Shown here: positions 8,675 to 24,788 of the stretch, in pieces
Position numbering within the stretch: position 1 is the first letter of the stretch
Layout: every line of letters begins with the position of its first letter
Virus record (IMG/VR): IMGVR_UViG_3300009702_000017
Location: 36,315-100,314 of that record
Reading direction: 5' to 3' (one strand)
Origin: a virus
Length of the DNA: 64,000 nucleotides
Notes under the pieces: model-generated
Databases searched by the model: none
What the model was told of the DNA's origin: nothing
Seen by the model: only the letters and a program-made list of their open reading frames with translations
Made by a program: the position numbers and the translations under genes

Positions 8675-8714
8675 TGTTTTCTCCTATTACTAGGTTGTTG
8701 TTTGAAAGCGTGCC

Positions 8715-9593: not shown

Positions 9594-9642
9594 TTGTTCT
9601 TCTCTCGTTTGGGTTAGTAGTTAGCTACGTGCGTGCTAGCTA

Positions 9643-10098: not shown

Positions 10099-10204
10099 TC
10101 TTTACTCCTGCGAGTTGTTTTGTGGGGAGTACCGTTCCGTACACCTATAGAATTGCTTTTGAGCATGAGGCAAATTCTGTGCAAAGCGTAGCAATCTAGC
10201 TGAT

Positions 10205-10570: not shown

Positions 10571-11801
10571 TCGGTGGCTTATCCAGAGGCTCAAATGGAA
10601 TGACTCCTTCTCTGCCAGGAACAGCAGAATGAGCATATAGCGCATGGGGCGCTCTAATCGATCCGACTCGTGCTTCTGGGTCACCACCTAGCGCCGCTAC
10701 AGCCGATTTCTTCTGAACCTTCGCGCCACTGTTCAGGGCAAAGTCGGCTTGCTGGGGGGTCTCGCCAAGGCCAGCCGAGATAGATAGCTTGTGCGTACCG
10801 CCAACAGCAGGAACCCCTTCAAGCTCTGTGCACAAATGACAGAGGAACCGACTAGCGTGCTCATACTGGGGAAAGTGAGCACTGAACTCGTCTCCACCAA
10901 ACCGATGAAGCTTCCCCTGTGGATCCTGACCTTCATAGGTTCTCGTCATGGCTCGCTGCATGGCGTCTCCCATCGTACGAATAGCATTGTCGCCCTGCTC
11001 ATGTCCAAGCTCATCGTTGATGCTCTTGAAGTCATTGGCATCCATCATCACATGAACACCCTGCCGTGCAGGCTGTGTTTCCAAAAAGTCGCGATAAGCT
11101 CTCTTGTTGCCAATCCCCGGAACCATCTCGTCTTCAAACAGTTCCTTGCGAATGGTGTCATAGTCTTCTGGATCAAGATGCCCTGCATCAACAAGCGAGC
11201 GAAGCTTATCCATCGAGCCGGTAACTGGAGACTCGGCCTTGATCAACTCGTAGAATGCGTTCTTAGTCTTCTTCACGGACTTCTCCAAAGTCTTTGTGTA
11301 ACGCAGAGTAGCAAGTCCCTGCTCTACATTCTGTACGATTCGCTCGATTTCCTGCAATGCAAGCGGAGCACCATCCAAATGCGCAGTTCCTTCGATATAC
11401 TCAAGCAAACGCGGACGTTCCATTCCTACCCTCTGATACAGGAATGAGTTCGGTCTGTCTGCAATGGCTTGTGCTGGCTCATCTGGTTTCACGTCCAGAG
11501 AACCGTTATCGTCGCCACCATCTTCTGCCTCAAATGGCTTCAATAGCTCTGGATACAACCCTTTCCTGACATCTCCCTTCGAGACGATTTGGAAGTAGGG
11601 GTGCTTCTTCATGCGCTGCAAGAAATCTAATGTTCCCTGATGACACACCCCTTCTGGCAAGTCGCTCAAATGCTCGAAGTAATCCGATAGCACATGTAAA
11701 CCATCGTCTAGAATGGCAAACTTCCCTGAGTGCTGTCGATGTACACCACTAGAATGAGGACGAATGACGTACACGTTGTAGATGTGATCGTAGTCTAGCA
11801 T
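10503..11801 (-). CDS. head-cluster protein with a C-terminal GGDEF diguanylate cyclase domain
   Basis: D..PGIGNKRAY, MMDANDFKSINDELGHEQGD, RFGGDEF (10884-10898), SISAG...ADFAL...K. Confidence 0.9.
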   Translation of the reverse strand: MLDYDHIYNVYVIRPHSSGVHRQHSGKFAILDDGLHVLSDYFEHLSDLPEGVCHQGTLDFLQRMKKHPYFQIVSKGDVRKGLYPELLKPFEAEDGGDDNGSLDVKPDEPAQAIADRPNSFLYQRVGMERPRLLEYIEGTAHLDGAPLALQEIERIVQNVEQGLATLRYTKTLEKSVKKTKNAFYELIKAESPVTGSMDKLRSLVDAGHLDPEDYDTIRKELFEDEMVPGIGNKRAYRDFLETQPARQGVHVMMDANDFKSINDELGHEQGDNAIRTMGDAMQRAMTRTYEGQDPQGKLHRFGGDEFSAHFPQYEHASRFLCHLCTELEGVPAVGGTHKLSISAGLGETPQQADFALNSGAKVQKKSAVAALGGDPEARVGSIRAPHALYAHSAVPGREGVIPFEPLDKPPIRPPESPKPVQTGQNPFSTVNA

Positions 11802-11813
11802 TATTCCTTACCC

Positions 11814-14417
11814 TTATACCGACCCGGGTGGTTGCCAAGCATCTGGGTTTCGAGTTATCTGGTTAAACGAAGCCTTTGGATTCTGCTCATGACGAAGTTG
11901 CATCCTCTGAAGCCTCTGCCCAGCAAGAGTTCCCGCTCTTTCAAGCCGATACTTGTCCGCCAACCTCCTTACCTCGTTGGGGTCAAGGCCCCTTAGCCAA
12001 TCAGCAGCGTTTTTATGGAGCGGTTTTGTCAGATCCAAATCGTCATTGTAATCTAGATACTCCATATCCCTGCGCCGCTCATTAGCCATTGTATTTCCAT
12101 GATCAATTAGATACATGTTATCGCGATTTGGCCCACCGAAGAGAAAATTCCCCCTATGTCTATCTTCATTATTAAGAACAGTATCAAAAAGACCAAACCT
12201 GTGAAGCGTACCATTGTCCTTCATCCGCTGCAAAATGTCTCGGGTTGTACTTGTCTTAGTATATCCGGATTCCGCATTCTCCACACCCTCTTGTACAGAC
12301 ATCTCTCGCTCTCTATTCCTTGGATCGAGTATGTGCGCAGTCACAGGAACATGATCCCCAAGGCCAAAACTCTTAGCTAACTCATACGCAAAAGCCTCTT
12401 TTCTTGACATAGGATCACCATGTAGGCTAGACTTGACAAGGACAGGCTTCCCATGGGCACCAAGACGCCAATGTGTGCTATACGCACCGGAGTCCGCCAA
12501 ACGAATCAAAGGCGCCTCCGATAAATCAAGCCCATGAATCAAGGCGCGCTGTTCTTCGCTCTGCGGTGTAATGATATGCTTGTCGGCGTCCACTACAGTT
12601 GGAGCGCCATATTTCATTGGCAACCGATGGAGGGTATAGGACGAACCCTCTCCCAAACTCATACGTTTCGGTTCGCCACCTTCTTCGCCAATCTTGTGGC
12701 CGTAGGCTAACCCTAGTTGTCCCTTGACGCCGCTTCCTGTGAATTCGTAAACCTTGTACCCATTGCCATCATTACCAGTTGCGTATCCCGGCTTTATGGT
12801 TTGCCCTTTCCATTCCACAGGTTCCATCTCTGGAATCTCAACCGAATTCTCCGACATGGCCTTGGCAAGCCTAGCAGCCTCAATAGCAATTCTGTGCTTT
12901 CGTAGATCCCTTTCAAGCTGTGTCCTAGGCTCAGACTTCTCTGTTGGCTCTTCTAGATCCTGTTGCTGAACGCCCAAGATTCCATGAATGGCTTGACGTA
13001 TCCTCTGATGCCTATACAAATCGTCTTCATTGTCAATATGTGGCTCGAAAAATACCTCAGGAACAAAGCTGCTTGAAATAGAATTAGGCCCATCTTCATT
13101 AGACCACACTCTGGCGGCCTTGGTAGGCTTTAGGACAAAGCCACCTCGTTCCAATGCACGCAATACGTTCGGACGGAAGTATTGCTTTAGATGTTCTGGC
13201 TTACGAAACCCAAACAATATAGGATTGGGGTGTTGTCCCGAAAACCCGTGATGAAACATATGGTAATCGGAAGGATCAAAGGTTTTTTCGGGCCCAGGTT
13301 GATCGGTGATCCTAAGATCTGCCCTTTCAACCGGATCGTCGGAATCACTGTATCGTCGAATAGCCTCGAACCCAGCACCTTGGAATGGCCCTTCTCCATC
13401 ATCGTTCTCAAACCGATATACTGTCATCGGATTCTTGGGATCATTGTGGATGAGCGCCATCTTGGCTAGCTTCACCTCGGCCTTCTTCAGTCCAAATACC
13501 GAAACAAGCTTGGCGAACTTCTCTAACGTCGCGTCCTTGTCCTCTGACTCTGCCAATACACCACCGAGACGATTGGCCAGGAACTTCTTCAGATCGCCCT
13601 TATTGGGATCGTAGTCACGCGCCGCCGCCTTCGCTTGACTAAGTAGCCACAACTTCTTGAGACGAGCAGACCGATCCTCACGCTGAAGAGCAGCACCTCC
13701 TACCAACCCACCGGGAGCAGCACTAGGGACACTGGCAGCAAGTGCCTTACCAAGCTTTCCCTCTGTCACAACAGGATTCGAGTACATCGTTACTTGTCCG
13801 GCGAGATGACGGTAGTTGGGGTGTTGTAGCTCGCTCTTGTTGATGTTCTCTAGGATGTCCTCCTTCGCCTTCCGAGGCTTGCTGTCGTCTACCTTGGGAT
13901 CGTACACCAAGCCACTGATGGCAGTCTTGTTACAAGGCTTGACAGTGATGGCGACTTGACGCATAATGGTACGCTTAAGACGATTTCCCTTGCGCTCAAG
14001 GGTTCCACCCTGGATACTATACCTCACAAGCAACGGCTCGTTGTGCTCAATCTGGTCACGCACGATAGCCGCCAGTGAAACAGCATTGAGATGACCGGAT
14101 CCATCAAACAGACGCACCATCCCATACAGAAACGGGACCTTGATCTCATCCCAGTAGTGCCTCTGCCGATCGGTTTCGCAATCGCCCTTCTTGAAAATTT
14201 TCTTGACGTAGATGATCTTACCTACGAAATCGTTCGAAGAAGCTCCGTTTGCCTCTTCGTCACGATGCTCCCAGTTAGCGAGCGCCTTTCCTTCCTCGCC
14301 ATCGCTGATATCTACGCCCTTAATCTCCAGGATTTCACCAGACGAATCAATGGCCTCTGTACCAAAGGCACCATCAATAACCATCCCCTTGGACCTACTG
14401 GTGTCTGGCAGCTGCAT
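11814..14417 (-). CDS. prohead protease fused to an unknown domain and a C-terminal PI3/4K/HipA-like kinase
   Basis: N-terminal DSSGE...NWEH...VGKI...YSIQG protease pattern; C-terminal VLVK...EAFAYELA...DRHRGNFL...LIDHG; start reassigned to ATG 14417. Confidence 0.8.
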   Translation of the reverse strand: MQLPDTSRSKGMVIDGAFGTEAIDSSGEILEIKGVDISDGEEGKALANWEHRDEEANGASSNDFVGKIIYVKKIFKKGDCETDRQRHYWDEIKVPFLYGMVRLFDGSGHLNAVSLAAIVRDQIEHNEPLLVRYSIQGGTLERKGNRLKRTIMRQVAITVKPCNKTAISGLVYDPKVDDSKPRKAKEDILENINKSELQHPNYRHLAGQVTMYSNPVVTEGKLGKALAASVPSAAPGGLVGGAALQREDRSARLKKLWLLSQAKAAARDYDPNKGDLKKFLANRLGGVLAESEDKDATLEKFAKLVSVFGLKKAEVKLAKMALIHNDPKNPMTVYRFENDDGEGPFQGAGFEAIRRYSDSDDPVERADLRITDQPGPEKTFDPSDYHMFHHGFSGQHPNPILFGFRKPEHLKQYFRPNVLRALERGGFVLKPTKAARVWSNEDGPNSISSSFVPEVFFEPHIDNEDDLYRHQRIRQAIHGILGVQQQDLEEPTEKSEPRTQLERDLRKHRIAIEAARLAKAMSENSVEIPEMEPVEWKGQTIKPGYATGNDGNGYKVYEFTGSGVKGQLGLAYGHKIGEEGGEPKRMSLGEGSSYTLHRLPMKYGAPTVVDADKHIITPQSEEQRALIHGLDLSEAPLIRLADSGAYSTHWRLGAHGKPVLVKSSLHGDPMSRKEAFAYELAKSFGLGDHVPVTAHILDPRNREREMSVQEGVENAESGYTKTSTTRDILQRMKDNGTLHRFGLFDTVLNNEDRHRGNFLFGGPNRDNMYLIDHGNTMANERRRDMEYLDYNDDLDLTKPLHKNAADWLRGLDPNEVRRLADKYRLERAGTLAGQRLQRMQLRHEQNPKASFNQITRNPDAWQPPGSV

Positions 14418-14423
14418 ACCTAA

Positions 14424-14430
14424 TAGATTG
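14424..14430 (-). promoter_or_regulatory. candidate late promoter CAATCTA-N6-ATG
   Basis: Same spacing to ATG as at 10192 and 16040. Confidence 0.45.
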
Positions 14431-14494
14431 TGGGGGAGCAAAAAAGGGGGATCCGTCTCTCCGAATGCGCATCGCAGAAATACCAAAGTAGTGC

Positions 14495-14523
14495 TTGACA
14501 TCTAGAGCGGCTAGCGGTATAAC
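14495..14523 (+). promoter_or_regulatory. sigma70-type early promoter
   Basis: TTGACA-17-TATAAC, then AAAGGAG RBS. Confidence 0.85.
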
Positions 14524-14543: not shown

Positions 14544-15278
14544 ATGCCCCGCCTGAAGAAAGAGGTTGTCCTCGCCCGAGAGAAGTTCGTTCGAGATTTC
14601 TTCAAGAACCACCCTGCCGCCAAAGTTGACGACGCCCAGAAGGCCATCCAGGATAGTACGGGGATGCGTATGGCGCCTCCACGGTTGAAGGAGCTTTACG
14701 GGGAAACGCGCGGCACCGGAACCACTTCGATCACCCCCGCCGCAAGTCCTGTCACGGATGACGCCAAGATCGATAGTGCCTACACTCCCCCGTCTGATGA
14801 CGAGGATGACGCCATGTCCTCCATCCCCCTGGCACCCGACGGATACGTTCCCCAGACGCCGATCTCCGATGAGCAGAAGAAGACCATGTACTCAGAGCTT
14901 TGCGACCGCATGAACGACATGATGGACCACTACAATGCGGATAACATCCCCGATCGCGTCAAGTTCTACGCCAACCGAATTTACGCCGCACCCGATCTCC
15001 AGATCGCCAAGGAGGTGCGACACAAGACTCTCCAGAAGCTCCAGATCCACTTCCTGGCCATGTGGTCCAAGCACCGGATCCTTGGTCCCGACAGCCTCCA
15101 GGGGTGCCTGAAGCGCTCCAAGGAAGCGGACAACCTTGCGAACTTCCTGGAGTCCAAGAACGATCTCCAGGGGGCCCGGCGGGAGCGCCAGCGGGCAGCA
15201 AGGATGCGCGCCAAGGCTACCGAACTTCGGGCACTCCAGGTCGAGGGAGTCTCGGACGAAGCCGCACAAAGCACTTGA
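14544..15278 (+). CDS. hypothetical early protein
   Basis: 244 aa; promoter and RBS upstream; G/C-ending codons. Confidence 0.8.
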   Translation: MPRLKKEVVLAREKFVRDFFKNHPAAKVDDAQKAIQDSTGMRMAPPRLKELYGETRGTGTTSITPAASPVTDDAKIDSAYTPPSDDEDDAMSSIPLAPDGYVPQTPISDEQKKTMYSELCDRMNDMMDHYNADNIPDRVKFYANRIYAAPDLQIAKEVRHKTLQKLQIHFLAMWSKHRILGPDSLQGCLKRSKEADNLANFLESKNDLQGARRERQRAARMRAKATELRALQVEGVSDEAAQST

Positions 15279-15303
15279 CTTTATCATTTCCAGGTAGTAT
15301 TGT
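15275..15303 (+). promoter_or_regulatory. sigma70-type early promoter
   Basis: TTGACT-17-TATTGT. Confidence 0.7.
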
Positions 15304-15323
15304 AGTTGCACAAGGAGAAACAC

Positions 15324-15707
15324 ATGGCGCTCTCAAAGAGGATGAGACTTCCCAAGACCCTGGAATATCTGGACCTGGAGTCCATCCGCACCGCCCGGGA
15401 AGAGGTCGTGGTTCTGGAGGCGAAGTTGACGGAGAAGAAGAAGGCGCTCCGAGAGATGGAGGGGACGGCAATCGCCATCCTGGAGCATGGAGGCTACTGC
15501 CGGGGACCTCTCACGGCGACCCTGGATACCGTCACTAAGGCTGGCAAGCGTAGCCCCAAATGGAAGGGTCTCTACGCGACACACCTCCAGACCATTCACG
15601 ATCTCACCGAAGAGCAGGTGAAGGAACGATTCCAGGGGATCGTGGACAGCATGGAACCGAACGTCACCAAGTCCACCAACCTCGTCATTTCAGAAAAGGA
15701 GGGGTAA
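15324..15707 (+). CDS. hypothetical early protein
   Basis: AAGGAG RBS, ATG 15324 (MALSKRMRL...). Confidence 0.75.
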   Translation: MALSKRMRLPKTLEYLDLESIRTAREEVVVLEAKLTEKKKALREMEGTAIAILEHGGYCRGPLTATLDTVTKAGKRSPKWKGLYATHLQTIHDLTEEQVKERFQGIVDSMEPNVTKSTNLVISEKEG

Positions 15708-15760
15708 TATGTCATCGACGGTTACAGCAAAGCCAACTACAATGCCGTGACGGACACAGA

Positions 15761-15934
15761 ATGGAGGAATTGGATCGCCTCGTTGACGAGAAGCTGATGG
15801 AAGCCGAAAACGAGGCCGATCGCGAGCTTTCAAGGCAGATGCGCGACTACGGGTATGAAGAGTGGCCGCCTACCCAATCGGAAGATGGGTGGATCCTCCT
15901 GAAGGAGAGCCCCTACCAAGGAAGACGCATCTGA
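15761..15934 (+). CDS. small acidic hypothetical protein
   Basis: MEELDRLVDEKLMEAENE...; start uncertain. Confidence 0.45.
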   Translation: MEELDRLVDEKLMEAENEADRELSRQMRDYGYEEWPPTQSEDGWILLKESPYQGRRI

Positions 15935-16002
15935 CAAGGGATTTGTGACGTGGAGGCGAAGTGCCCTCTGGGATTGTCTGGGAATGTGGAACAAAATCAC
16001 AA

Positions 16003-16031
16003 TAGACGCCGACGCCTGGAAGCCCTATAAC
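16003..16031 (+). promoter_or_regulatory. sigma70-type promoter
   Basis: TAGACG-17-TATAAC. Confidence 0.6.
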
Positions 16032-16052
16032 CCAAACAGCAATCTATAGACA

Positions 16053-16325
16053 ATGGAAAATTCAACCTACAAGATCATGGCTTGGCTCCCGTCAAGCGGA
16101 AATGTTGCCCTAGTGGCCCCTAATGGATCGGTCGGATGGGCGGGTCCCTCAACCGAATATCACTTCCAACCGATGTTCCCACAGTTCATCGAGTCCGCAG
16201 TCCAAAAGCACTGGTACGTTCGCCTCAAGACTCCTTTGGAGGTTACTCTAGAGGATCTCCCTAGTGTGGTGGAACATATGGAGCGTGGATTCGAGGCCAA
16301 CAGCGGACAAGGCCAAGGCGAATAG
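16053..16325 (+). CDS. hypothetical protein
   Basis: 90-aa ORF behind a promoter. Confidence 0.65.
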   Translation: MENSTYKIMAWLPSSGNVALVAPNGSVGWAGPSTEYHFQPMFPQFIESAVQKHWYVRLKTPLEVTLEDLPSVVEHMERGFEANSGQGQGE

Positions 16326-16328
16326 TTC

Positions 16329-16357
16329 TTGACGCCCAGTGTCCAATGTGCTAACTT
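16329..16357 (+). promoter_or_regulatory. sigma70-type promoter with extended -10
   Basis: TTGACG-17-TAACTT preceded by TG; AGGAGG RBS follows. Confidence 0.65.
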
Positions 16358-16378
16358 GTGATCACAAAGGAGGAAGTA

Positions 16379-16687
16379 ATGCACGAGTTCAATATCGATG
16401 CCCATCTCGACTATCAGCTGTACCAGCACCTCTCCGCCGAAGAGGAGTCTGATCGTCTCTACGAGGAAGCATGGGGAAACGCCATCCCATGTCCGGTTCA
16501 CGGCAAAGACCTTCTGGACGAGCGGCTGAATCCAATCACCTACATGCCGGAAATCTACTGCACTGGTATCAATGGCTGCCCCAACTGCGGCGGCTCCGGC
16601 CCCTGCGACGAGGGTTCCGATAATGTCGCTCTCGATCGCTGCCCCGGCTGCGGGGCGGCGCTGGTGAATGGGCAGGTCAAGGACTGA
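16379..16687 (+). CDS. Cys-rich hypothetical protein
   Basis: AGGAGG RBS; CPVH, CPNC and CPGC motifs. Confidence 0.7.
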   Translation: MHEFNIDAHLDYQLYQHLSAEEESDRLYEEAWGNAIPCPVHGKDLLDERLNPITYMPEIYCTGINGCPNCGGSGPCDEGSDNVALDRCPGCGAALVNGQVKD

Positions 16688-16911
16688 TGTCCCTCACTAC
16701 CTGCCCCATTTGCCGTACCTCCTACGACCTTGAAGGATTCCGGGCCCTTGAGTTCGTGGAGTACAAGCAAGTCCGGGGCACCTACAAGCGCATGGAGATT
16801 CGACGCTGCAAGTGTCACAAGGGCGTCAGAATCCTCTGGGTGGACAGCTGGTTAGAACCGTGTCCACCACCCTCCATCGACCCTCCAGTAGCACAAATGA
16901 GGCTCCTATGA
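16687..16911 (+). CDS. small Zn-ribbon protein
   Basis: CPIC...CKC; TGATG coupling. Confidence 0.6.
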   Translation: MSLTTCPICRTSYDLEGFRALEFVEYKQVRGTYKRMEIRRCKCHKGVRILWVDSWLEPCPPPSIDPPVAQMRLL

Positions 16912-17273
16912 CAACAAGAGAAGAATTCCAGCAGGCAATCGAAGAGGAAGATCGGATTCGAAAGTCAATGCACCCGATCGAGCTTCAGATCGACCAGGAA
17001 CTCCAAGCCGAAACGATGGAGACATTCAAGGGATTCTTCCCAAAGTCCAAGATTACCGATTGGGTAAAGGCACAGAAGAAGATTCCCGCCGATGTCCTGG
17101 TAGAAATGTTAGGGCGCTACCACGAAAAAGCGCGTACAGCCGGAGATAAGTGGATGGCTGATCGAAAAACGGCGAAGGAGCGCGTTCACACACTCGCCAA
17201 GGATCTTCGCCCCATCCCCGGAAGAGAAAGGTTCAAGTGGAAGTCTCGCTACGAATCCGAGTACCATACTTAG
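16908..17273 (+). CDS. hypothetical protein (frame stays open past TAG to 17372)
   Basis: GAGG RBS; MTTREEFQQAIEEEDR... Confidence 0.65.
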   Translation: MTTREEFQQAIEEEDRIRKSMHPIELQIDQELQAETMETFKGFFPKSKITDWVKAQKKIPADVLVEMLGRYHEKARTAGDKWMADRKTAKERVHTLAKDLRPIPGRERFKWKSRYESEYHT

Positions 17274-17368: not shown

Positions 17369-20300
17369 CTAACTTGTAGCAGGCACCCACCCTTTATCAA
17401 AGGTGAAGCTACCTTGCGTACCGTGACGCCTCTGGTGTAGCTGTGTGAGGAAGTGCTCAAAGTCGGTACGTAAGTTCGCCTTGCGCGCCAGCATAGCGTT
17501 CTCGCGTTCCTGGCGACGTGGAGTTCCCGGAGGGAAGAACTTGTCCAGATACGGAGAGAACTCCCTCAGATACTCGTGATCGGGAATGGACTGTGCACCT
17601 CTGATGAACGGTTCTAGCTGCTGTGGATCAAAATCCATACGGTTGTCCGCAAATGCATGCCAGAAGTTGTTGTAGTACGGCGCCGGAGTGCCATACATCG
17701 CATTTGGATTGTAGTCAAGTGCCAAACGATCATTCGGGAAGTACCTGAATGCCTGTTCCTTATCGATAGCAGCAATCCTACCATCCTTGCGCACGATGAA
17801 ATTGTCCGGGTGACTGTCGTGCTGGGACATCAGCCAATCGGCTACGTGAGCGGCCCCAACGTCCCTCTTCTGCACATCCGTTAGCTTGGACGGTGGGATA
17901 GACCTCAACGTCCCTGTCGTGTCATAGAGAGGCTGCACGGTGGCTACATTGTCACCGTTATTCACTCGATGGATTGGCACCGCAACTGGATTGAACCTAC
18001 GCTCGATACGCGACAGCGCCTGCTGCACATCGGCTCGGAATGGCTCTGGCTCGCCCGCTTTTGAAAGTGCTGGCTTTACAAGCCACTTGCTTCCGTTCTT
18101 GTGCTGCGGTCCCTCGTAGATGTGCTTCTCACCCGCACCTCCAAGATTAGCTCCATTCCGAACATACTGAAGCTCATGGAACTCTGGTTCTTCGTCGCTT
18201 TTCCCTAACTTCTCTTCGGTCTGTGTCGGGGCGTACACTTGTTGTATATCACCCTGTTCCCCATGCCTGAACACTGGGATGTTGTACTTCTTGCCCAAAT
18301 CAACAAGTTGTGCTGCCCGGTCAGCTGCCCTTTCCGCGTAGTACGACGAAGATTTTTCGAGATGTGGATAATGCAATGAAGCAACATCCTTACTCAAGTC
18401 TACTCCACCATGAATATGTGCTTCTGGTGCATTTATAAAGCGATCTAGCTTACTCCCGTTCGCCAACCCAATAATAGGTGACTGCGAGTTCAATCTATTC
18501 GGGAGCACACCCAGTCTTGGATTTCCGGTGGTGGTTTGAAATATATTCTGAAATGCAATTATACGAGGAAATTCTGATGTTACAGGATGAAGATCCGCTC
18601 CCTCCCTAGGGGACATTCCAGTCGTACTGTCAGCGATATATGCGGTATCGTCACCTGTAAAGGTAGACCGATCCTTAACATGCGGCTTTAACTCTGCCCA
18701 ATAGTCCCCATACCCACGGGCGCCCCCTCGATCAAAAGTCAAATTAGGATGACGACTAGCTATATGTAATGCACCGTATACCGGCCGATACTTCCCATCC
18801 AAATCCCTGGGGAATTTGAATACACTTTCATCCCACTTTTCTCTGTCGGGCCTATCATCTCCCCAATCGCTAGGCGTCCCGTTTGCGAAGGTATTCACAA
18901 ATCTCCCACGCCTCATTAGTCCAGCAATGGCTTCGTGAGGGAAATTCATGGTAATTGGAGCTTCCTCTACATACCTGATGATCTCTGGATCCGAAAGAAC
19001 CTTGTGATAGAAGTCGTATCTATTTTGCAACGGAATACCAGCCGCATCGTTCTGCATCGTCCTAATCACTTTATTGAAATCCGGGTTACTTGGATTGAAC
19101 ACATTGGCAAGGTACTCGGTCCAAACCTTACCATTGTTCCTCCAAGTAGGAGCATTCGGCTTAAATATCTTATCAATAGCTTCCGGGGAATGCTTTCCTA
19201 GCTTCTCTTCCTCTGGCAATGGAAGGTGGACCTGTTCTACCTTGCCTGTGTCACGATCATGCTTGAACACAGGAAGATTGTACTTCTTACCAAGCTCTAC
19301 CATGTCGTTCACCTCACTGGGAGCTATAATCGACGAGTAGTGTAACGAATGTACGTCGTCTGGTAAATGAACACCTCCATGGATCTGCGCTTCAATTGGC
19401 CGAGTACCATTGACACGATACGCAGTCTTATCTACCTTATGCAAATCTGGATGAAGCCAATTCAAAAGTGCGGCACCTGTTGTCTGAACCATACGTGGCT
19501 TCTGGTCTACTAGATCGTTAGGATTGGCAAAGAATAGGTGCTGATACGCAAGCGCTTTCGGGTGATTGATCGTGACAGGCATCCTATGTGCATCTGGCCC
19601 ACTATACGCAAATGTATCGTGTCCCGTGAACGTAGACCTATTCTTCACATGATCATGTAGCTGCGCCCACGCTGCCCCATACGTACTATGGCCTCCATAT
19701 TTTGCTGTATCGCTGTCGTCTCTATTGGTTATGGCAAGAGCACCATAGATGGGTCGGATGGGTCCGGTCTTCATCAAATCTTCCACAGTGTCACGATCAC
19801 GATTAAACGGGAATCCAAATACATCCCGTTCAATGCTCGGCCTCAACCCAGAATAGGAATCTCCCCCGTTTGCATCTGGGTGGAAAGCGTTGAGGAACTT
19901 CCCATCCTTTAGTAATCGTCTAGCCGTAGGTGGATTGAAATTGACAGTGATAGGTGCTTTCTGAATTGCATCCAATAGCTTCTCGTCGAAGACGGGAGCA
20001 TGCTCTTTGAGTGATGGATTCAAGCGATCGTTGATGAAATCTTCCCAGTCCTTTCCGTTCTGTCGAAATCTCTCTACGTTCGGTTCCCAATACTGCTTGA
20101 TCGCTTCCCGTGAGTGCTTTGCCAGCTTGGACTCGCTCTTCCCAATATCATCCTCTTCGGGACTCCAGGTACCACGGTTGAAGACAGATTTGATCTGATG
20201 AGGATGAAAAGCAATGTAGCCTGTCCCTCCTTCGATCTCGTTAGGATACACAACACCGTCGTAGCCTTGATCCAGGAGCTTACGCTTCAGTGCTTGTGCC

Positions 20301-21697
20301 AGTTCGTAAGCGACCTCGTGAGATCCAGTCTCCCGATCCCTTCCAATGAGGTCTAGGTGCACTTCCCTTCTATAGTCGGCGTCGTTGTCATACCGATCCC
20401 ACCCCGGGTCATCGGGATGCCGGCCGATCCAACCATAAGCCTCTGGCAAGTCACTCAAATGGCCTGGAAGATCCTGCTCTAGGATCATGTTCGATAGCTT
20501 ATCTTCGTCTACATAGAGAGGATTGCGGAGCGATAAATAAGCTGGGATGACGCGCCCACCAACGTTTTCGTCGCCTTCGCCGTGGAAACGGCTATCCCTC
20601 CAGTCGCCAGTCTTCTGCGATCCAGTAAATGCGCTTCCTACCTGTGGAGAATCACTGAAATGTGCGCCCAAGAACGAATTTGGGTCCCCGCTAGATCCAA
20701 CAAACGGACCCTCAAGCTCCTCTTCATCAGGCTCATATGGGTCAGCTCCATTAGTGCTAAACTCACTGAAGTTCACAGGCGAGTTCGTACCATGGTACAC
20801 TACCTTGGGTCTATTGTTCTCTGTGATCTGAGAACCATTGAACCAGTGCTTGAACGCTGGGCTGTTTTCCATCGAAGGATCTCGTCCAGACTTCGGTTCA
20901 TCGAACATAGCCAGCTGTTCCGCCTTTTCAAGAGGGCGCTGCTTCTCCCACTCGTCCCACTTCGGTCCCTTGTAGGTCACATGGCCGTTGTGGTCAAAGC
21001 CATATCCAGGCATGAGGGTAGCTATCGTACATCTACAATGCGGGTGCTCCCCAGCAATGCTCGGTTCATTGTCTCCACGCTTATGGTAGCCGGCCTTGCA
21101 TTCTGACAAGCGCCATAGTCTCGGCGTTACATCGTCTTCGTTCAAGTGAAGACGCTTACACTCATCACACAGATGCTCGTCATGTACGACCACGAAATAG
21201 ACAACTGGATCGTTTTCTCCAACGTCCTCATTGATCTTGACGATTCCCTCTAGAGCACCAAAGGCACGTCCGTTCTGCGCCTCGCTATCGATGATTGTCT
21301 TGACATTCTTGCCGACCTCACCCCATACATCCGTGAGCTTTCCGTTCAACACCGTCTCTACGTCAGTGTCGATGCCCTGAGCCTTCGCATCCGCGAGGAA
21401 CGAAGATACTTCGTTGACGACCTTGGCCTTTGCATTAGCGCGAGAGGCATCGAGATAGTTTTCTGCAACGGATAACAACGACTTCAATACCCGAGGATTT
21501 CCATTGACCCCTTCCGCCTCTGCGGCAGTAAGGTACAAGCCCGGAAGAGACATCCGCGACTTACGACCAAACAAGATACGCTTGTCGATGCTACCTTTTC
21601 CGAGGAAGCGAGACTTGGCGCGGTCAAACATTTGATCGATGAGACTATCGATCAACTTGAGAGCGGCGCCAGAGAGAACGTAGTGCGGCGCTGGCAT
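17369..21697 (-). CDS. MuF-like minor head protein fused to an ART-PolyVal-like domain, two DUF3626-like repeats and a kinase-like domain
   Basis: CDEC...HPHCRC (MuF); FKHWF.GS...KVVYHGT; duplicated RP.YGAL...RSTFTG.DT...EA.IHGGV.L..DV.SLHY; C-terminal WLVKP...DSHPDNF...IDKEQAF. Confidence 0.8.
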   Translation of the reverse strand: MPAPHYVLSGAALKLIDSLIDQMFDRAKSRFLGKGSIDKRILFGRKSRMSLPGLYLTAAEAEGVNGNPRVLKSLLSVAENYLDASRANAKAKVVNEVSSFLADAKAQGIDTDVETVLNGKLTDVWGEVGKNVKTIIDSEAQNGRAFGALEGIVKINEDVGENDPVVYFVVVHDEHLCDECKRLHLNEDDVTPRLWRLSECKAGYHKRGDNEPSIAGEHPHCRCTIATLMPGYGFDHNGHVTYKGPKWDEWEKQRPLEKAEQLAMFDEPKSGRDPSMENSPAFKHWFNGSQITENNRPKVVYHGTNSPVNFSEFSTNGADPYEPDEEELEGPFVGSSGDPNSFLGAHFSDSPQVGSAFTGSQKTGDWRDSRFHGEGDENVGGRVIPAYLSLRNPLYVDEDKLSNMILEQDLPGHLSDLPEAYGWIGRHPDDPGWDRYDNDADYRREVHLDLIGRDRETGSHEVAYELAQALKRKLLDQGYDGVVYPNEIEGGTGYIAFHPHQIKSVFNRGTWSPEEDDIGKSESKLAKHSREAIKQYWEPNVERFRQNGKDWEDFINDRLNPSLKEHAPVFDEKLLDAIQKAPITVNFNPPTARRLLKDGKFLNAFHPDANGGDSYSGLRPSIERDVFGFPFNRDRDTVEDLMKTGPIRPIYGALAITNRDDSDTAKYGGHSTYGAAWAQLHDHVKNRSTFTGHDTFAYSGPDAHRMPVTINHPKALAYQHLFFANPNDLVDQKPRMVQTTGAALLNWLHPDLHKVDKTAYRVNGTRPIEAQIHGGVHLPDDVHSLHYSSIIAPSEVNDMVELGKKYNLPVFKHDRDTGKVEQVHLPLPEEEKLGKHSPEAIDKIFKPNAPTWRNNGKVWTEYLANVFNPSNPDFNKVIRTMQNDAAGIPLQNRYDFYHKVLSDPEIIRYVEEAPITMNFPHEAIAGLMRRGRFVNTFANGTPSDWGDDRPDREKWDESVFKFPRDLDGKYRPVYGALHIASRHPNLTFDRGGARGYGDYWAELKPHVKDRSTFTGDDTAYIADSTTGMSPREGADLHPVTSEFPRIIAFQNIFQTTTGNPRLGVLPNRLNSQSPIIGLANGSKLDRFINAPEAHIHGGVDLSKDVASLHYPHLEKSSSYYAERAADRAAQLVDLGKKYNIPVFRHGEQGDIQQVYAPTQTEEKLGKSDEEPEFHELQYVRNGANLGGAGEKHIYEGPQHKNGSKWLVKPALSKAGEPEPFRADVQQALSRIERRFNPVAVPIHRVNNGDNVATVQPLYDTTGTLRSIPPSKLTDVQKRDVGAAHVADWLMSQHDSHPDNFIVRKDGRIAAIDKEQAFRYFPNDRLALDYNPNAMYGTPAPYYNNFWHAFADNRMDFDPQQLEPFIRGAQSIPDHEYLREFSPYLDKFFPPGTPRRQERENAMLARKANLRTDFEHFLTQLHQRRHGTQGSFTFDKGWVPATS

Positions 21698-23805
21698 TAG
21701 TTCTCCTTTGGTAGATAGTTCCTACGAATTACCTTGCAAGCCTCTTTGAGCATCCGCTTGGAGTCATTTTCCCACCACTGCATGAAATCGTTCACGGTGA
21801 CCTTGTGGTGAGCCAAGACCCTACGCTTCGACGTAGGTAACTGACGCTCGGACTTGGTAAGGGAGTCCAAGGCAAGATCGGCGCTTCTGGATAGATCCTG
21901 TTCTCCAGACATGTCCTGTTCGGGCGATGGCTGACCCGCTTCGCTTGCCTGTGTGCCTTCCTGGCCCTGGGCCTCGGCTGGGGCGTCACCACTGCCCGCT
22001 GCAGCTCCTGGGGCTCCCTGGGCGCCCTGCTGTTGCTGCATTTGAGCCTGCTGCTGCATTTGAGCCTGTTGCTGCATCTGCTGCCATTCGAACCAGAACG
22101 GGTCTCTAATGTAGGCAAGGGACTGATCTTGGGATGCCCCCTGGACCCCCAACAGCTTCTCCACGATGACACCTACCGGAACGTACTTGTCAATGACAGC
22201 TTGCCACTGTGGATTGAGAAGGAAATCGCCCCCAAGTTGCTGGTCAATCGGATCCTTCTCTACCGCCTCCAGCACCTTGTTCATCGTCATATGCAGCGGC
22301 ATGTCTTGCTGCAACCGGATGGACTCCTTCTCTGCCGTCTCGGACTCTAGACCAAGAAGCTTCAAGGTGCAAATCTTCGACAAGTTCTTGTCGATGACAG
22401 GCATGATGTAGGTGTTGAGAAAGTCCTGCCACTGTGCAATTAGCGGCCTAATACCTACGTCTCTGGCTGCCTCCAACTTGTACTCGGCGTTAGATTCGGA
22501 TAGAGCCTGATTGTTTGTACCGCGAGACAAGTGGGCGTAGCCAGGAAGCTCCTCTGGAGACATTTGGAACGCTGCCATGATAGTCCGCGCGTTTGTGTCC
22601 GACAAGAACTGGAACTCCATATCACGCTGACCTTGATCAATCGGGGTCCAATTGATCCTGTCTTCTGGCCCGATACCAAATACGGGCATACGCCAGGAGT
22701 TGTCTACGCCATTGATGTTCGCATTGAACTCTTGCTGCACCTGAGATACAACCTGCTCATCTACCTCTTCCGACTGAATGATGAGCATTCCCCGGGTAGC
22801 GCGGCCAGACTGGAAGTACAGCTTGTTGTGGGTCGTAATGTTGATGTGGGTTGTAACGGCTGCTAGAATAGTATCAAGCGGAGTTACTGGATACCCATCT
22901 AACTCAATGTCGTTCACAGGATAGAAATTATGTACCACACACTCTTCGTCTGTGAATGCCTGCTTCGGAGTTCCATCGATAACCTGAATCCAGGTGTACT
23001 CGTCATTCTCAAACCGCTCTGGCTCCAGCCTTTCGTTCTTGAAGCGCTCAAGTAGCTTCCGGGCTTGATCACGAATAGCTTGCTCAGCCTCCTGCTGCGG
23101 AGTGGCACGGTAGATGGTACCAGCGTCGATTGGACGGAAGCTGTGGAACTCACGCTCCCCATTACCATTCATCACGTAGATGAGTTCTGTCGCAATACGC
23201 CCAACTGTGATTGCGTTTTTGGTACTACGCAATAGGTACTGCGAAAACGTCATGCGATCTTCTGCATGATCATAGCCTTCTACTCGACCACAGCTATATA
23301 GGAGCTTCTCAGCCTTCTCAATACGATCCCGAAGAGCCTCTTTTTGCTCTTCATCCATCTTGTCCGTCGTACCTGGATTTGGTTCAATAACGTAACCAGT
23401 CGAGAAGCGATCGGGACGAGGACGACCAAAGGTTCCAACGTGATTGCCTCGTGCGTTTATAATGGCAGCGACAAGATCGTCCTGAATGGCAATGCGCTTC
23501 AGAACCCTATCTGGAATCATCCGCAGCTTGGCGCGGTAGACTGACTGGTACTCACCCGGATGGTTTGGATCCTTTTCAAAGGCCAAGCGCGTGATACTAC
23601 GCTTACCACCTGGACCATTGAGGATATTCAATACACTCTTGGCTAGAGAAGGATAGCCATCAGACGTTGCATCCTCCTCCGATTTCTCTAGAGACGCTTC
23701 CACGAACGGATCGATGAACGCGACCGAAACCCCCTTGGGGCGCTTAGATCCGATGGGATACATCTTGAGCGACAAGGGCTCTTCGTGGTGAATTGAGGAA
23801 GACAT
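21697..23805 (-). CDS. portal protein (Herelleviridae-like)
   Basis: DAGTI, GYPVTPLD, YFQSG.ATRGML, DMEFQ, MSPEE and GIRPL motifs; Gln-rich tail; start at TAATG overlap 23805. Confidence 0.85.
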   Translation of the reverse strand: MSSSIHHEEPLSLKMYPIGSKRPKGVSVAFIDPFVEASLEKSEEDATSDGYPSLAKSVLNILNGPGGKRSITRLAFEKDPNHPGEYQSVYRAKLRMIPDRVLKRIAIQDDLVAAIINARGNHVGTFGRPRPDRFSTGYVIEPNPGTTDKMDEEQKEALRDRIEKAEKLLYSCGRVEGYDHAEDRMTFSQYLLRSTKNAITVGRIATELIYVMNGNGEREFHSFRPIDAGTIYRATPQQEAEQAIRDQARKLLERFKNERLEPERFENDEYTWIQVIDGTPKQAFTDEECVVHNFYPVNDIELDGYPVTPLDTILAAVTTHINITTHNKLYFQSGRATRGMLIIQSEEVDEQVVSQVQQEFNANINGVDNSWRMPVFGIGPEDRINWTPIDQGQRDMEFQFLSDTNARTIMAAFQMSPEELPGYAHLSRGTNNQALSESNAEYKLEAARDVGIRPLIAQWQDFLNTYIMPVIDKNLSKICTLKLLGLESETAEKESIRLQQDMPLHMTMNKVLEAVEKDPIDQQLGGDFLLNPQWQAVIDKYVPVGVIVEKLLGVQGASQDQSLAYIRDPFWFEWQQMQQQAQMQQQAQMQQQQGAQGAPGAAAGSGDAPAEAQGQEGTQASEAGQPSPEQDMSGEQDLSRSADLALDSLTKSERQLPTSKRRVLAHHKVTVNDFMQWWENDSKRMLKEACKVIRRNYLPKEN

Positions 23806-24788
23806 TACTCGGTAGAAATGACAGTGAGGTTTAGGGTCTGCGTACTCTTGTTCACCACTTCCATCGACCACGTTGGACCAATCTTGGTGAGATAGGCTAC
23901 GCTAGCTGGGTCAGCTGCGGTACTAGGTGACAAACGCTGGTAATCTCCGGTGTCCCCATTCATACGTACAACGCACTCTTGGTCTGCCTCGATGTGAACG
24001 AATCGTTTGGAAGACGTATAGAACTGAAGCCCAGTCGCATCCGGCAAAATACCGGTCTCGGTCGCAAGCGGTGAGGTGCTTGCAAACTCGATCCACGTAG
24101 AAGTCACTCGCTGCAACTCGTAGGTCTTTTGGGTGCCAATGGCGAATCCAGCACTAATAGCAAGTTTGTCTCCTGGCTGTACACCATCGGCCGAAAAAGC
24201 GATCAGTTGTGCATCAGAGGTGAGCGTGACGCTTTCGGAAACACCAGTAAAGACTTCTCCTGCGAGGCGAGTTAGCTGAATTTGGGTAGTGGACTGAACC
24301 GCCATCACCTGCCAGAATCCCACATTGAGGAAGTTGAACGGCGAAGCCGAGTCTCCAGTTAGCTGACCCGGAATGAACAGCGTATCACCGGGCGCGACAC
24401 CAGCAAACGACCCAACATCGATCTGCATAGTAACACTACCATTGCTATTGACCGTAGTAGTAACGGTAGAGCCAGAAAGCGCCAGATTCCGATCTGTCCT
24501 AAATACCGGGTTCGTACCACTAGTCCAGGTAAGCCTATAGATACCCCTGTTCGCCACATTCTCTTCAAGCGAGAACTGCGATGTAGCGTCTGTCAGAGTA
24601 GTACGCACACCATTGAAGATCGATAGCGTAGCAGATGGATCAACCGCATATCCCCTAGACGTTGGGTTTTCAACAATCAATCCACTCTGCTCATGAGTCC
24701 AGTCTACAAACCTGCGCTGTGGATTGTCGTTAGCGGCAGAGTCACCGTAAGCGATGATTTTGATTAAGTGTCTGAAAACCGCATTCAT
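23805..24788 (-). CDS. putative structural protein
   Basis: Ser/Thr/Gly-rich beta protein; AGGAG RBS before ATG 24788. Confidence 0.65.
   Translation of the reverse strand: MNAVFRHLIKIIAYGDSAANDNPQRRFVDWTHEQSGLIVENPTSRGYAVDPSATLSIFNGVRTTLTDATSQFSLEENVANRGIYRLTWTSGTNPVFRTDRNLALSGSTVTTTVNSNGSVTMQIDVGSFAGVAPGDTLFIPGQLTGDSASPFNFLNVGFWQVMAVQSTTQIQLTRLAGEVFTGVSESVTLTSDAQLIAFSADGVQPGDKLAISAGFAIGTQKTYELQRVTSTWIEFASTSPLATETGILPDATGLQFYTSSKRFVHIEADQECVVRMNGDTGDYQRLSPSTAADPASVAYLTKIGPTWSMEVVNKSTQTLNLTVISTE

What the first reader, a model, noticed from the sequence alone, without database searches (positions are those of the whole stretch)
17369..21697. MuF protein with a four-domain effector train including a tandem DUF3626-like duplication
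Seen: MuF-like N-terminus (~20940-21697), ART-PolyVal-like domain (~20150-20900), two clearly homologous repeats (~19220-20100 and ~18220-19180) and a kinase-like domain (~17369-18190), with K-S/A/H linkers. Known: MuF fusions to toxin or ART domains occur in phage heads. Inference: diverged duplicate ART-like domains may target different host substrates; modules appear exchangeable at the cleavage linkers.
Basis: partly seen in the sequence, partly recalled or inferred. Interest (0 to 1): 0.75.

Follow-up and report, generated by a model that had tools for sequence, protein, structure and literature searches.

The report
Phage head protein carrying four enzymes
A large uncultured relative of Myxococcus phage Mx1 has extended its small MuF head protein into a 1442-residue chain of four apparently active host-modifying enzymes (three ADP-ribosyltransferases, two of them relatives of the Salmonella effector SopF, plus an atypical kinase), probably cut apart inside the capsid and injected with the DNA; this is a rich but recognisable example of a known phage strategy.

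Summary
ORF 17369-21697 (-) encodes 1442 aa and is translationally coupled to the portal gene. It has five parts:
- a divergent MuF domain (1-258);
- ART-PolyVal (278-515, Pfam 6e-13);
- two DUF3626 modules (528-835, 836-1166; 34% identical, E 4e-45; sister copies on a tree);
- a C-terminal kinase (1167-1442).

DUF3626 is the SopF family (PDB 7DN8/7DN9). The three SopF NAD-binding residues (Y224, Y240, E325) are kept in both copies.

The kinase folds with high confidence (pLDDT 90). Its nearest solved structures are PI4KIIα (Z 14.1) and CtkA (Z 12.3). It keeps K, DxHxxN and D. Its family has about 1850 clusters and matched no Pfam model above threshold.

About three quarters of the complete orthologues among 41 related phage loci, and Mx1 itself, are bare MuF proteins of about 255 aa, so the train is a lineage-specific addition.

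The linkers (L-x-K followed by S/A/H) sit at four domain borders. The motif is 18-fold enriched in this phage's head-module proteins (p 2e-6, this gene excluded). It marks DUF3626 module borders in other phages too. Cleavage, packaging, injection and the enzyme activities are all inferred.

This scan earlier noted a MuF-SopF-like fusion in a streptococcal phage. Verdict: new member of a known kind, a polyvalent MuF-effector protein. Interest 0.5.

The parts
17369..21697 (-). Whole gene: 1442-aa MuF-effector polyprotein. Its start overlaps the portal stop (TAATG), with AAAGGAG 7 nt upstream.
21697..23871 (-). Portal gene directly upstream (724 aa). It carries two L-x-K|S motifs near its N-terminus (aa 61 and 76).
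   Evidence: Pfam Phage_portal 2.4e-11 and PHROG portal families; motifs
20924..21697 (-). MuF-like head-incorporation domain, aa 1-258, with C177-x-x-C180 and H218-P-H-C221-R-C223.
20921..20932 (-). Linker 1: L-E-K|A (aa 256-259), at the point where the bare MuF orthologues end.
20153..20866 (-). ART-PolyVal ADP-ribosyltransferase domain, aa 278-515. H302 is nearly invariant and D480 invariant; Y387 lies in the conserved P-x-Y-L-S. Two low-confidence acidic/Gly-rich insertions.
   Evidence: Pfam PF18760 6e-13; alignments A3/A4; model pLDDT 72.9; ART-superfamily structural neighbours at Z 5-7.6
20114..20125 (-). Linker 2: L-A-K|H (aa 525-528).
19193..20116 (-). DUF3626 (SopF-like ART) module a, aa 528-835. 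Y651, Y673 and E769 correspond to SopF Y224, Y240 and E325.
19190..19201 (-). Linker 3: L-G-K|H (aa 833-836), exactly between the two repeats.
18200..19192 (-). DUF3626 (SopF-like ART) module b, aa 836-1166. Y974, Y996 and E1092 are conserved. One further L-E-K|S at aa 1113 lies inside the domain.
18197..18208 (-). Linker 4: L-G-K|S (aa 1164-1167).
17372..18199 (-). Atypical protein-kinase-like domain of PI4KII/CtkA type, aa 1167-1442. K1208 (FKP-type motif), D1294-x-H1296-x-x-N1299, D1312.

Best explanation
The gene encodes a capsid-targeted cargo polyprotein of an Mx1-like myophage.

The N-terminal MuF domain is made together with the portal. As in other MuF/gp7 proteins, it brings the chain into the prohead. 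Behind it hang four enzymes: an H-Y-D type ART-PolyVal ADP-ribosyltransferase, two SopF-family (DUF3626) ADP-ribosyltransferases that arose by tandem duplication in place, and a PI4KII/CtkA-like atypical kinase.

The head maturation protease probably cuts after Lys in the L-x-K|S/A/H linkers. That would free the MuF domain and four separate enzymes inside the head. They would then be ejected with the DNA and modify host targets with NAD+ and ATP early in infection.

Shown here:
- the domain identities;
- conserved catalytic residues in the three transferase domains, and conserved kinase catalytic motifs;
- the duplication;
- that the train is a lineage-specific addition to a normally bare MuF;
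- that the linker motif is specific to head-module proteins and conserved at module borders.

Inferred: packaging, cleavage, ejection, enzymatic activity and the targets.
For: Domain calls:
- Pfam and PHROG hits.
- MuF orthology to the Mx1 post-portal gene at 47% identity; 11 of 24 orthologues hit PF04233; TAATG coupling to the portal gene.

SopF link:
- phmmer to PDB 7DN8/7DN9, E 4e-5.
- PMC6682159 places DUF3626 in SopF.
- PMC11937434 names E325, Y224 and Y240 as NAD-site residues whose mutation blocks activity, and its primer sequences fix their sequence contexts.
- All three align to conserved residues in both copies and in 3 further phage DUF3626 domains (P0004, P0005, P0127).

Duplication: the two copies are sisters with 99/98 support.

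Kinase:
- Model pLDDT 89.9.
- At least 500 kinase hits by Foldseek.
- PI4KIIα Z 14.1 over 231 residues, CtkA 12.3, MavQ 11.6, actin-fragmin kinase 11.5.
- Catalytic motifs intact.
- The family has 1852 clusters, nearly all inside proteins of 1000-7700 aa, some with MuF. In mycobacteriophages it sits in minor-capsid/ART fusion proteins.

ART-PolyVal: H302 is nearly invariant and D480 invariant. The neighbours are PARP, MbcT, diphtheria toxin and ParT.

Lineage-specific train: of 41 orthologous loci, most are about 255 aa, 5 carry an intein and 3 carry a small tail of about 170-200 aa (GNAT-like in two). Only this gene and P0005 carry long trains, while P0155, a 662-aa 5'-truncated fragment, carries MuF plus one DUF3626.

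Linker motif:
- 4 of 5 sites fall at domain borders.
- 13 sites in 9,517 aa of head-block proteins with this gene excluded, against 2 in 26,075 aa elsewhere, p 2e-6. L-x-K-[SA] gives 33 against 15, p 1.5e-9. The K-to-R, reversed and L-x-E controls are flat.
- Six L-x-K-[SA] sites in the ORF at the scaffold position, and LVK|A at MCP residue 11-14.
- The same motif directly precedes DUF3626 modules in P0004, P0005, P0127 and a second gene of this phage.

Precedent: prohead proteases cut ejection proteins in SPN3US (PMC10052503); phiKZ and T4 from my own knowledge. T4 Alt is a head-packaged, injected ART (PMC5512222).
Against: - No experiment exists. The phage is an uncultured IMG/VR contig estimated at 74% complete.
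- The MuF Pfam score is below the curated cut-off.
- I could not confirm the protease domain of the neighbouring 895-aa ORF with Pfam, PHROGs, NCBIfam or PDB sequence searches. Its identity rests on the Mx1 GenBank annotation.
- The linker motif was defined after seeing this protein. One site (aa 1113) lies inside a domain.
- The ART-PolyVal model is only moderate (pLDDT 72.9), with modest Z scores.
- SopF needs a eukaryotic ARF GTPase for activation and has a eukaryotic target, so its biology cannot be transferred to a bacterial host.
- Some polyvalent proteins, such as N4 vRNAP, are packaged unprocessed (PMC5512222).
Confidence: 0.62

Rival explanations
1. Same cargo protein, but it is not processed. 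The whole 160-kDa chain is packaged and ejected as one polyvalent protein. The L-x-K-S/A stretches are then just flexible, conserved module borders, or signals for something else such as docking.
For: Iyer et al. note that N4 vRNAP, ArdC and TraC1 travel unprocessed (PMC5512222). The protease domain next door could not be verified by my searches. One motif lies inside a folded domain.
Against: The motif is enriched 18-fold in head-module proteins only, with flat controls. It clusters in the scaffold-position ORF and sits at the N-termini of MCP and portal, which is the pattern expected of protease substrates. It falls at four borders of this protein.
Confidence: 0.22
2. A MuF polymorphic toxin in the sense of Jamet et al. 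2017. The train would be released on lysis, or delivered to kill competing bacteria, and would be neutralised in the producer by immunity proteins.
For: MuF N-terminus with variable C-terminal toxin-type domains (PMC5576092).
Against: No same-strand downstream gene exists. The next ORFs are convergent and have no Pfam match. An opposite-strand block of small genes sits at the same position in Mx1, whose MuF has no train, though I did not compare their sequences. The relatives are large Mx1-type contractile-tail phages of about 120-170 kb rather than typical temperate prophages (PMC10720576). Four enzymes in series fit the polyvalent pattern, not one toxin with one immunity gene.
Confidence: 0.06
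3. The enzyme-like domains are catalytically dead. They would serve as internal head or scaffolding mass, or as decoys that bind host defence factors.
For: Tandem kinase copies in relatives include degenerate ones (P0007 and P0008 second copies lack D/N/D). DUF3626 copy a sits on a long branch (1.99 against 0.43).
Against: The known or family-conserved catalytic residues that I could map are present in the three transferase domains, and the kinase keeps its K, DxHxxN and D motifs.
Confidence: 0.07

Closest known systems
Polyvalent proteins and MuF-effector fusions of phages (Iyer, Burroughs, Anand, de Souza, Aravind 2017, PMC5512222; Iyer et al. 2022, PMC9503650)
   Same: A MuF head domain followed by several enzymatic effector domains in one chain. 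ART-PolyVal is the signature ART of this class. Kinases and repeated ART copies occur. The gene sits in a late/head context. Head packaging and injection are predicted on the T4 Alt model.
   Different: Neither paper's main text mentions DUF3626 or SopF. The kinase here keeps a helical C-lobe and is PI4KII/CtkA-like, not the C-lobe-less 'polyvalent kinase' they describe. The modules here are separated by a short Lys-containing motif shared with the other head proteins. That suggests processing by the head protease rather than by an embedded MPTase or assemblin domain.
Salmonella T3SS effector SopF (DUF3626; PDB 7DN8/7DN9)
   Same: Same Pfam family. Conserved RP[IV]YGAL, YG and EA[HQ]IHGG motifs carry the equivalents of Y224, Y240 and E325, which bind NAD+ in SopF (PMC11937434).
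   Different: SopF is a single-domain effector injected into animal cells, activated by ARF GTPases, that modifies the V-ATPase (own knowledge; PMC7716379 context). Here two copies sit in a phage head protein aimed at a bacterium, so activator and target must differ. Sequence identity is low (phmmer E 4e-5).
Myxococcus phage Mx1 WNM70317.1 and the IMG/VR orthologues
   Same: Orthologous MuF domain (44-53% identity for the closer orthologues, down to about 30% for the most distant) directly after the portal, followed by an opposite-strand island and a gene annotated as prohead protease.
   Different: Mx1 and most orthologues stop at about residue 255. This gene continues for another 1180 residues.
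Mycobacteriophage minor capsid-ART fusions (McProf gp54, DAZ90042.1; Onyinye gp16)
   Same: A head protein after the portal carries the same kinase-like family plus an ADP-ribosyltransferase.
   Different: The N-terminal head domain (Pfam VG15) and the ART family (ADPrib_exo_Tox, R-S-E type) are different. There is no DUF3626 and no tandem duplication.
Type II phosphatidylinositol 4-kinase (PDB 4PLA), H. pylori CtkA (3AKJ), Legionella MavQ (7M7A), actin-fragmin kinase (1CJA)
   Same: Best structural neighbours of the C-terminal domain (Z 11.5-14.1). Same order of an FKP-type Lys, DxHxxN and a metal-binding Asp.
   Different: 10-14% identity. Pfam PI3_PI4_kinase is below threshold. These neighbours include both lipid and protein kinases, so the substrate cannot be inferred.
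Prohead-protease-processed ejection proteins of T4, phiKZ and SPN3US (PMC10052503)
   Same: Internal head or ejection proteins, the portal, MCP and the protease itself share one short cleavage motif.
   Different: Those proteases cut after Glu ([A/S/G]-x-E or [L/I]-x-E). The motif here has Lys at the presumed P1 position, and L-x-E-[SA] is not enriched. Cleavage here would dice a train into separate enzymes rather than remove a propeptide.

Membership tests
Phage_Mu_F / SPP1 gp7 (PF04233, TIGR01641) | Score above the curated Pfam/TIGRFAM cut-off | tested here: not met
   19.7 bits against 29.6 (E 0.0015); TIGR01641 15.7 against 39.65. However, 11 of 24 orthologues hit PF04233 (best 6.7e-5) as the only recurrent family.
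Phage_Mu_F / SPP1 gp7 (PF04233, TIGR01641) | Gene directly downstream of the portal in the head module | tested here: met
   TAATG overlap with the portal stop. Mx1 has the same order, and the IMG/VR relative L008 has one small ORF between portal and MuF.
Phage_Mu_F / SPP1 gp7 (PF04233, TIGR01641) | C-terminal conserved H-P-x-C-R-C block matching the end of the profile | tested here: met
   The match runs to profile position 111 of 112. H218, R222 and C223 are invariant and P219 and C221 nearly invariant across 24 orthologues.
ART-PolyVal (PF18760; Tox-ART-HYD2 clade) | Score above the Pfam gathering cut-off | tested here: met
   50.2 bits (56.5 for the isolated region) against 31.2.
ART-PolyVal (PF18760; Tox-ART-HYD2 clade) | H (strand 1), Y (strand 2), D (strand 5) active-site configuration (PMC5512222) | tested here: inconclusive
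   H302 is nearly invariant and D480 invariant in 14 domains. Y387 lies in the conserved P-x-Y-L-S, but I could not verify that it is the strand-2 Tyr.
ART-PolyVal (PF18760; Tox-ART-HYD2 clade) | ART superfamily fold | tested here: met
   Ranks 2-21 of the structural neighbours are all ART-superfamily members, and most of the top 40 are: PARP13, tankyrase, PARP1, MbcT, diphtheria toxin, ParT, RES (Z 4-6.4). The model is moderate at pLDDT 72.9.
DUF3626 / SopF ADP-ribosyltransferases (PF12294) | Score above the Pfam cut-off for each copy | tested here: met
   43.3 and 40.6 bits against 27. Confirmed on the genome.
DUF3626 / SopF ADP-ribosyltransferases (PF12294) | NAD-site residues equivalent to SopF Y224, Y240 and E325 | tested here: met
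   Y651/Y673/E769 and Y974/Y996/E1092.
DUF3626 / SopF ADP-ribosyltransferases (PF12294) | NAD+-dependent ADP-ribosylation of a protein target | not testable with these tools
   Needs biochemistry.
PI3/PI4-kinase-like atypical kinases (PF00454 and structural relatives) | Score above the Pfam cut-off | tested here: not met
   14 bits against 27.1, E 0.048. None of 10 family members hit any kinase model at 1e-3.
PI3/PI4-kinase-like atypical kinases (PF00454 and structural relatives) | Protein-kinase-like bilobal fold closest to PI4KII-type kinases | tested here: met
   pLDDT 89.9. 4PLA Z 14.1, rmsd 3.9 Å over 231 residues; CtkA 12.3; HipA 9.5.
PI3/PI4-kinase-like atypical kinases (PF00454 and structural relatives) | ATP-binding Lys, DxHxxN catalytic loop and metal-binding Asp | tested here: met
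   K1208, D1294/H1296/N1299 and D1312 were located in the sequence and are conserved in most of 9 aligned domains. Their spatial arrangement in the model was not inspected.
'Polyvalent-protein kinase' of Iyer et al. 2017 | Loss of the whole C-terminal kinase subdomain | tested here: not met
   The model has a helical C-lobe (helices 182-266 of the domain); description in PMC5512222.
MuF polymorphic toxin systems (Jamet et al. 2017, PMC5576092) | Cognate immunity gene immediately downstream, in a temperate phage | tested here: not met
   The downstream ORFs are convergent and have no family match. An opposite-strand block of small genes occupies the same position in train-less Mx1. Lysogeny was not assessed.
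Polyvalent proteins (PMC5512222) | Two or more unrelated effector domains in one polypeptide encoded among virion or late genes | tested here: met
   Four enzymatic domains after MuF, between the portal and the head genes.

The most novel reading that the evidence does not exclude
Mx1-like phages run a 'cassette' system for capsid cargo. Enzyme modules travel between different head proteins together with a short L-x-K|S/A address that a Lys-specific maturation protease cuts, so one gene delivers several free enzymes. The modules include SopF-family ARTs and a large PI4KII-like kinase family with no Pfam model. On this reading SopF, an effector of an animal pathogen, belongs to a family whose main reservoir is phage head cargo aimed at bacteria. 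That implies bacterial targets for this ART family and a new P1-Lys specificity class of prohead protease.
Probability: 0.35. Interest if true: 0.65.

Novelty: new member of a known kind. Interest (0 to 1): 0.5.

Why it matters
- It links the SopF ADP-ribosyltransferase family, studied only as a Salmonella effector of animal cells, to phage head cargo. That points to unknown bacterial targets for the family.
- It exposes a large kinase family (about 1850 clusters at 50% identity) that matched no Pfam model above threshold and lives almost only inside giant phage proteins.
- It gives a testable prediction of a Lys-specific head-protease site that would turn one gene into five virion proteins.
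- Comparison with bare MuF orthologues shows how such trains are built, by addition at the MuF C-terminus and tandem duplication.
- The general principle of MuF-effector or polyvalent proteins injected with the DNA is already established, so the gain is in detail rather than in concept.

Tried and rejected
1. General functional coupling of the kinase with ARTs. The order DUF3626 then kinase recurs: this gene, a second 852-aa gene of the same phage, P0004 and P0127. Mycobacteriophage proteins pair the kinase with an exotoxin-type ART. But among 151 kinase-family proteins only about 6 carry a recognisable ART, so I rejected this as a rule.

2. Close relatives of the whole protein. None found by megablast against phages or by word-based protein search, which returned only the protein itself.

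3. A wider set of long DUF3626 proteins. The word-based search gave only one extra hit.

4. Confirming the neighbouring protease domain. Pfam, PHROGs, NCBIfam and PDB sequence searches of the N-terminus of ORF 11817-14501 found nothing.

5. An immunity or ADP-ribosylhydrolase gene among the convergent downstream ORFs. No family match.

6. Profile search of ART-PolyVal against PDB sequences. No hit. Foldseek gave nothing at E <= 0.001, and only VIA-align showed the ART neighbours. The top structural hit, the cyanophage A4 pre-ejectosome chain (Z 7.6, rmsd 6.0 Å), is suggestive of an in-capsid ART-like domain. The paper does not mention an ART, so I use it only as a lead.

7. Promoter and terminator scans around the gene are at chance level.

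8. Lipid-kinase reading. Among 50,697 cultured phage records the kinase family was found only in Mycobacterium phages. From my own knowledge, mycobacteria and myxobacteria both make inositol lipids. The structural neighbours include protein kinases too, so the question stays open and I make no claim.

Full report
**What is there**

The minus strand of the window carries one uninterrupted ORF at 17369-21697, giving a 1442-aa product. Its ATG overlaps the TAA of the upstream 724-aa portal gene (TAATG), and AAAGGAG lies 7 nt upstream. The window is part of a 121-kb IMG/VR viral contig estimated at 74% complete. The contig's head module is colinear with that of Myxococcus phage Mx1.

**Domain by domain**

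(i) MuF domain, residues 1-258.
- The region hits Pfam Phage_Mu_F only weakly (E 0.0015, below the cut-off). It also hits PHROG 'portal/minor head protein' families and TIGR01641 weakly.
- It is 47% identical (E 1e-65) to the 258-aa protein encoded directly after the portal in Mx1.
- 41 orthologous loci were recovered from viral contigs. Of 24 aligned orthologues, 11 hit PF04233 on their own. No other family recurs; the only other hits were tail domains in four rows.
- The C-x-x-C ... H-P-x-C-R-C block is invariant or nearly invariant across them.
- I accept it as a divergent MuF.

(ii) ART-PolyVal, residues 278-515.
- Pfam gives E 6e-13, above the cut-off.
- In an alignment with 13 ART-PolyVal units from other giant proteins, D480 is invariant and H302 nearly invariant, and Y387 sits in a conserved P-x-Y-L-S. 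This fits the H-Y-D site described for this clade (PMC5512222).
- An AlphaFold model is moderate (pLDDT 72.9) with two disordered acidic insertions.
- Its structural neighbours are almost all ART-superfamily members: PARP13, tankyrase, PARP1, MbcT, diphtheria toxin, ParT (Z 5-6.4). A cyanophage A4 pre-ejectosome chain ranks first at Z 7.6.

(iii, iv) Two DUF3626 modules, residues 528-835 and 836-1166.
- Each is above the Pfam cut-off. They are 34% identical to each other (E 4e-45).
- DUF3626 is the family of the Salmonella effector SopF. phmmer finds PDB 7DN8/7DN9, and PMC6682159 places DUF3626 in SopF.
- PMC11937434 states that E325 (N-ribose) and Y224/Y240 (nicotinamide) are needed for ADP-ribosylation. 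Its mutagenesis primers fix their contexts as RPIYAAL, SAYGK and YIEAHIHG.
- These align with RPIYGAL/STYGA/IEAQIHGG in copy a (Y651, Y673, E769). In copy b they align with RPVYGAL/RGYGD/PEAHIHGG (Y974, Y996, E1092).
- On a small tree of seven phage DUF3626 modules the two copies are sisters (99/98 support). Copy a sits on the longer branch (1.99 against 0.43). So this is a tandem duplication in place with asymmetric divergence.

(v) Kinase-like domain, residues 1167-1442.
- The region has only a weak PI3_PI4_kinase hit (E 0.048).
- With an alignment of nine homologous domains it folds confidently (pLDDT 89.9, pTM 0.88).
- Foldseek returns at least 500 protein kinases.
- VIA-align ranks PI4KIIα first (4PLA, Z 14.1, rmsd 3.9 Å over 231 residues). 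CtkA (12.3), MavQ (11.6), actin-fragmin kinase (11.5), Fam20 (10.8) and HipA (9.5) follow.
- K1208 (in an FKP-type motif), D1294-x-H-x-x-N1299 and D1312 are in place.
- A profile search of 1.84 billion cluster representatives finds 1852 members (887 at E <= 1e-30). Almost all lie inside proteins of 1000-7700 aa, often as two to four tandem copies.
- Ten sampled members hit no kinase model in Pfam.
- Among 50,697 cultured phage records the family appears only in 12 Mycobacterium phage records, seven of which annotate the gene as a minor-capsid/ART fusion or an ADP-ribosyltransferase. McProf gp54 is one: VG15 plus this kinase plus ADPrib_exo_Tox.

**The train is an addition**

Mx1 and about three quarters of the complete orthologues are bare MuF proteins of about 255 aa. 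Five carry an intein inserted at the H-P-x-C motif. Three have a tail of about 170-200 aa that is GNAT-like in two. Only this gene and the metagenomic protein P0005 (MuF + intein + GNAT + DUF3626) carry long trains. P0155, a 662-aa 5'-truncated fragment, carries MuF plus one DUF3626. The bare orthologues end where this protein has L-E-K|A.

**Linkers**

- L-[GAE]-K-[SAH] occurs five times in this protein against 0.24 expected. Four of the five sites lie at the domain borders.
- Across the whole 121-kb genome the motif occurs 13 times in 9,517 aa of the minus-strand head block, with this gene excluded. It occurs twice in the remaining 26,075 aa (p 2e-6).
- The looser L-x-K-[SA] gives 33 against 15 (p 1.5e-9).
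- K-to-R, reversed-order, other-P1' and T4-type L-x-E-[SA] variants are not enriched.
- Carriers include the portal (two sites near the N-terminus) and the 895-aa ORF that is orthologous by position to Mx1's annotated prohead protease (three sites).
- They also include the diguanylate-cyclase gene, the ORF at the scaffold position (six L-x-K-[SA] sites), and the major capsid protein (LVK|A at residues 11-14).
- The same motif directly precedes DUF3626 modules in four other proteins: P0004 (ELEK|STPEG), P0005 (KLAK|STPKG), P0127 (PLAK|MSTPAG) and a second gene of this phage (DLEK|STPAG). In this gene the equivalents are LAK|HSREA and LGK|HSPEA.
- This is the pattern expected of a maturation-protease site that travels with the modules. 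Processing of head and ejection proteins at one shared motif is documented for SPN3US (PMC10052503), and for phiKZ and T4 from my own knowledge.
- Cleavage here remains an inference. I could not verify the protease domain itself.

**Mechanism proposed**

MuF brings the chain into the prohead. The protease cuts after Lys at the four borders. The freed enzymes are ejected with the DNA and act early on host targets, as T4 Alt does (PMC5512222). The targets are unknown. SopF's ARF activation and V-ATPase target are eukaryotic and cannot be transferred. The kinase's neighbours include both lipid and protein kinases.

**Rivals**

- An unprocessed polyvalent protein (0.22).
- A MuF polymorphic toxin with immunity (0.06). 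No same-strand downstream gene exists, and an opposite-strand gene block occupies the same position in train-less Mx1.
- Inactive structural domains (0.07). The catalytic residues are all kept.

**Other cargo in the same phage**

A third DUF3626 domain is fused to a distantly related DRHSGN...IDHS kinase in an 852-aa ORF that straddles the window start. Further kinase-like domains occur in a 452-aa ORF and at the C-terminus of the protease-position ORF. A general ART-kinase coupling was tested and rejected: about 6 of 151 kinase-family proteins carry a recognisable ART.

**Comparison and novelty**

The architecture is a clear member of the polyvalent/MuF-effector class (PMC5512222, PMC9503650, PMC5576092). 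Three things are new in detail:
- SopF-family ARTs as phage head cargo. The two Aravind-group papers do not mention DUF3626 or SopF, and only two library papers mention DUF3626 at all.
- The large kinase family that matched no Pfam model above threshold.
- The Lys-type linker motif.

I rate it a new member of a known kind, with interest 0.5.

Noticed in passing
L013, L032/L033, L044, L045 (IMG/VR loci) and protein P0005: Five MuF orthologues of Mx1-like phages, and P0005, carry an intein inserted exactly at the Cys of the conserved H-P-x-C-R-C motif. The inteins have LAGLIDADG or DUF559-type endonuclease parts. This is an intein in a minor head protein.
   Followed up: partly
window 1-623 and upstream (genome G000:C1:34379-36937, minus strand): A second gene of this phage (852 aa) carries a third DUF3626 domain (Pfam 6.7e-18), followed by a distantly related kinase-like domain with canonical DRHSGN...IDHS motifs. 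The next gene (452 aa) has another kinase-like domain (NPDGHAQN...IDHG).
   Followed up: partly
window 11817-14501 (-): An 895-aa ORF sits at the position of Mx1's 'putative prohead protease'. Its C-terminus is kinase-like (weak PI3_PI4_kinase/HipA_2 hits; DRHRGN...IDHG), and it carries three L-x-K|[SA] motifs. Its N-terminal protease domain matched nothing in Pfam, PHROGs, NCBIfam or PDB sequences.
   Followed up: partly
window 8718-9593 (-) and 7280-8674 (-): The ORF just upstream of the major capsid gene (scaffold position, 292 aa) carries six L-x-K-[SA] sites, four of them within 60 residues. The major capsid protein (PHROG 752, 3.9e-45) has L-V-K|A at residues 11-14.
   Followed up: partly
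proteins P0006-P0154 (metagenomic): The kinase family occurs as 2-4 tandem copies in about 45% of the 151 best-scoring proteins. Some second copies have lost the catalytic D/N/D residues (pseudokinase-like), for example in P0007 and P0008.
   Followed up: partly
L049 (GCA_034680565.1 contig JAXOUH010009651.1), gene 8001-14426: A 2141-aa protein combines NUDIX, DUF3626, the same kinase family and PBECR5 in one chain. L-x-K|S/A motifs lie at its module borders. The surrounding contig is phage-like and full of small unannotated genes.
   Followed up: partly
PDB 9K3A chain B against the model of window 20153-20866: The ART-PolyVal model's top structural neighbour is a chain of the cyanophage A4 pre-ejectosome (Z 7.6, rmsd 6.0 Å, 165 residues). 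The published paper does not describe an ART-like domain there.
   Followed up: no
window 14544-17273 (+): A block of six small opposite-strand ORFs lies between the MuF-train gene and the protease-position gene. None has a family match. A comparable opposite-strand block of four small genes sits at the same place in Mx1.
   Followed up: partly
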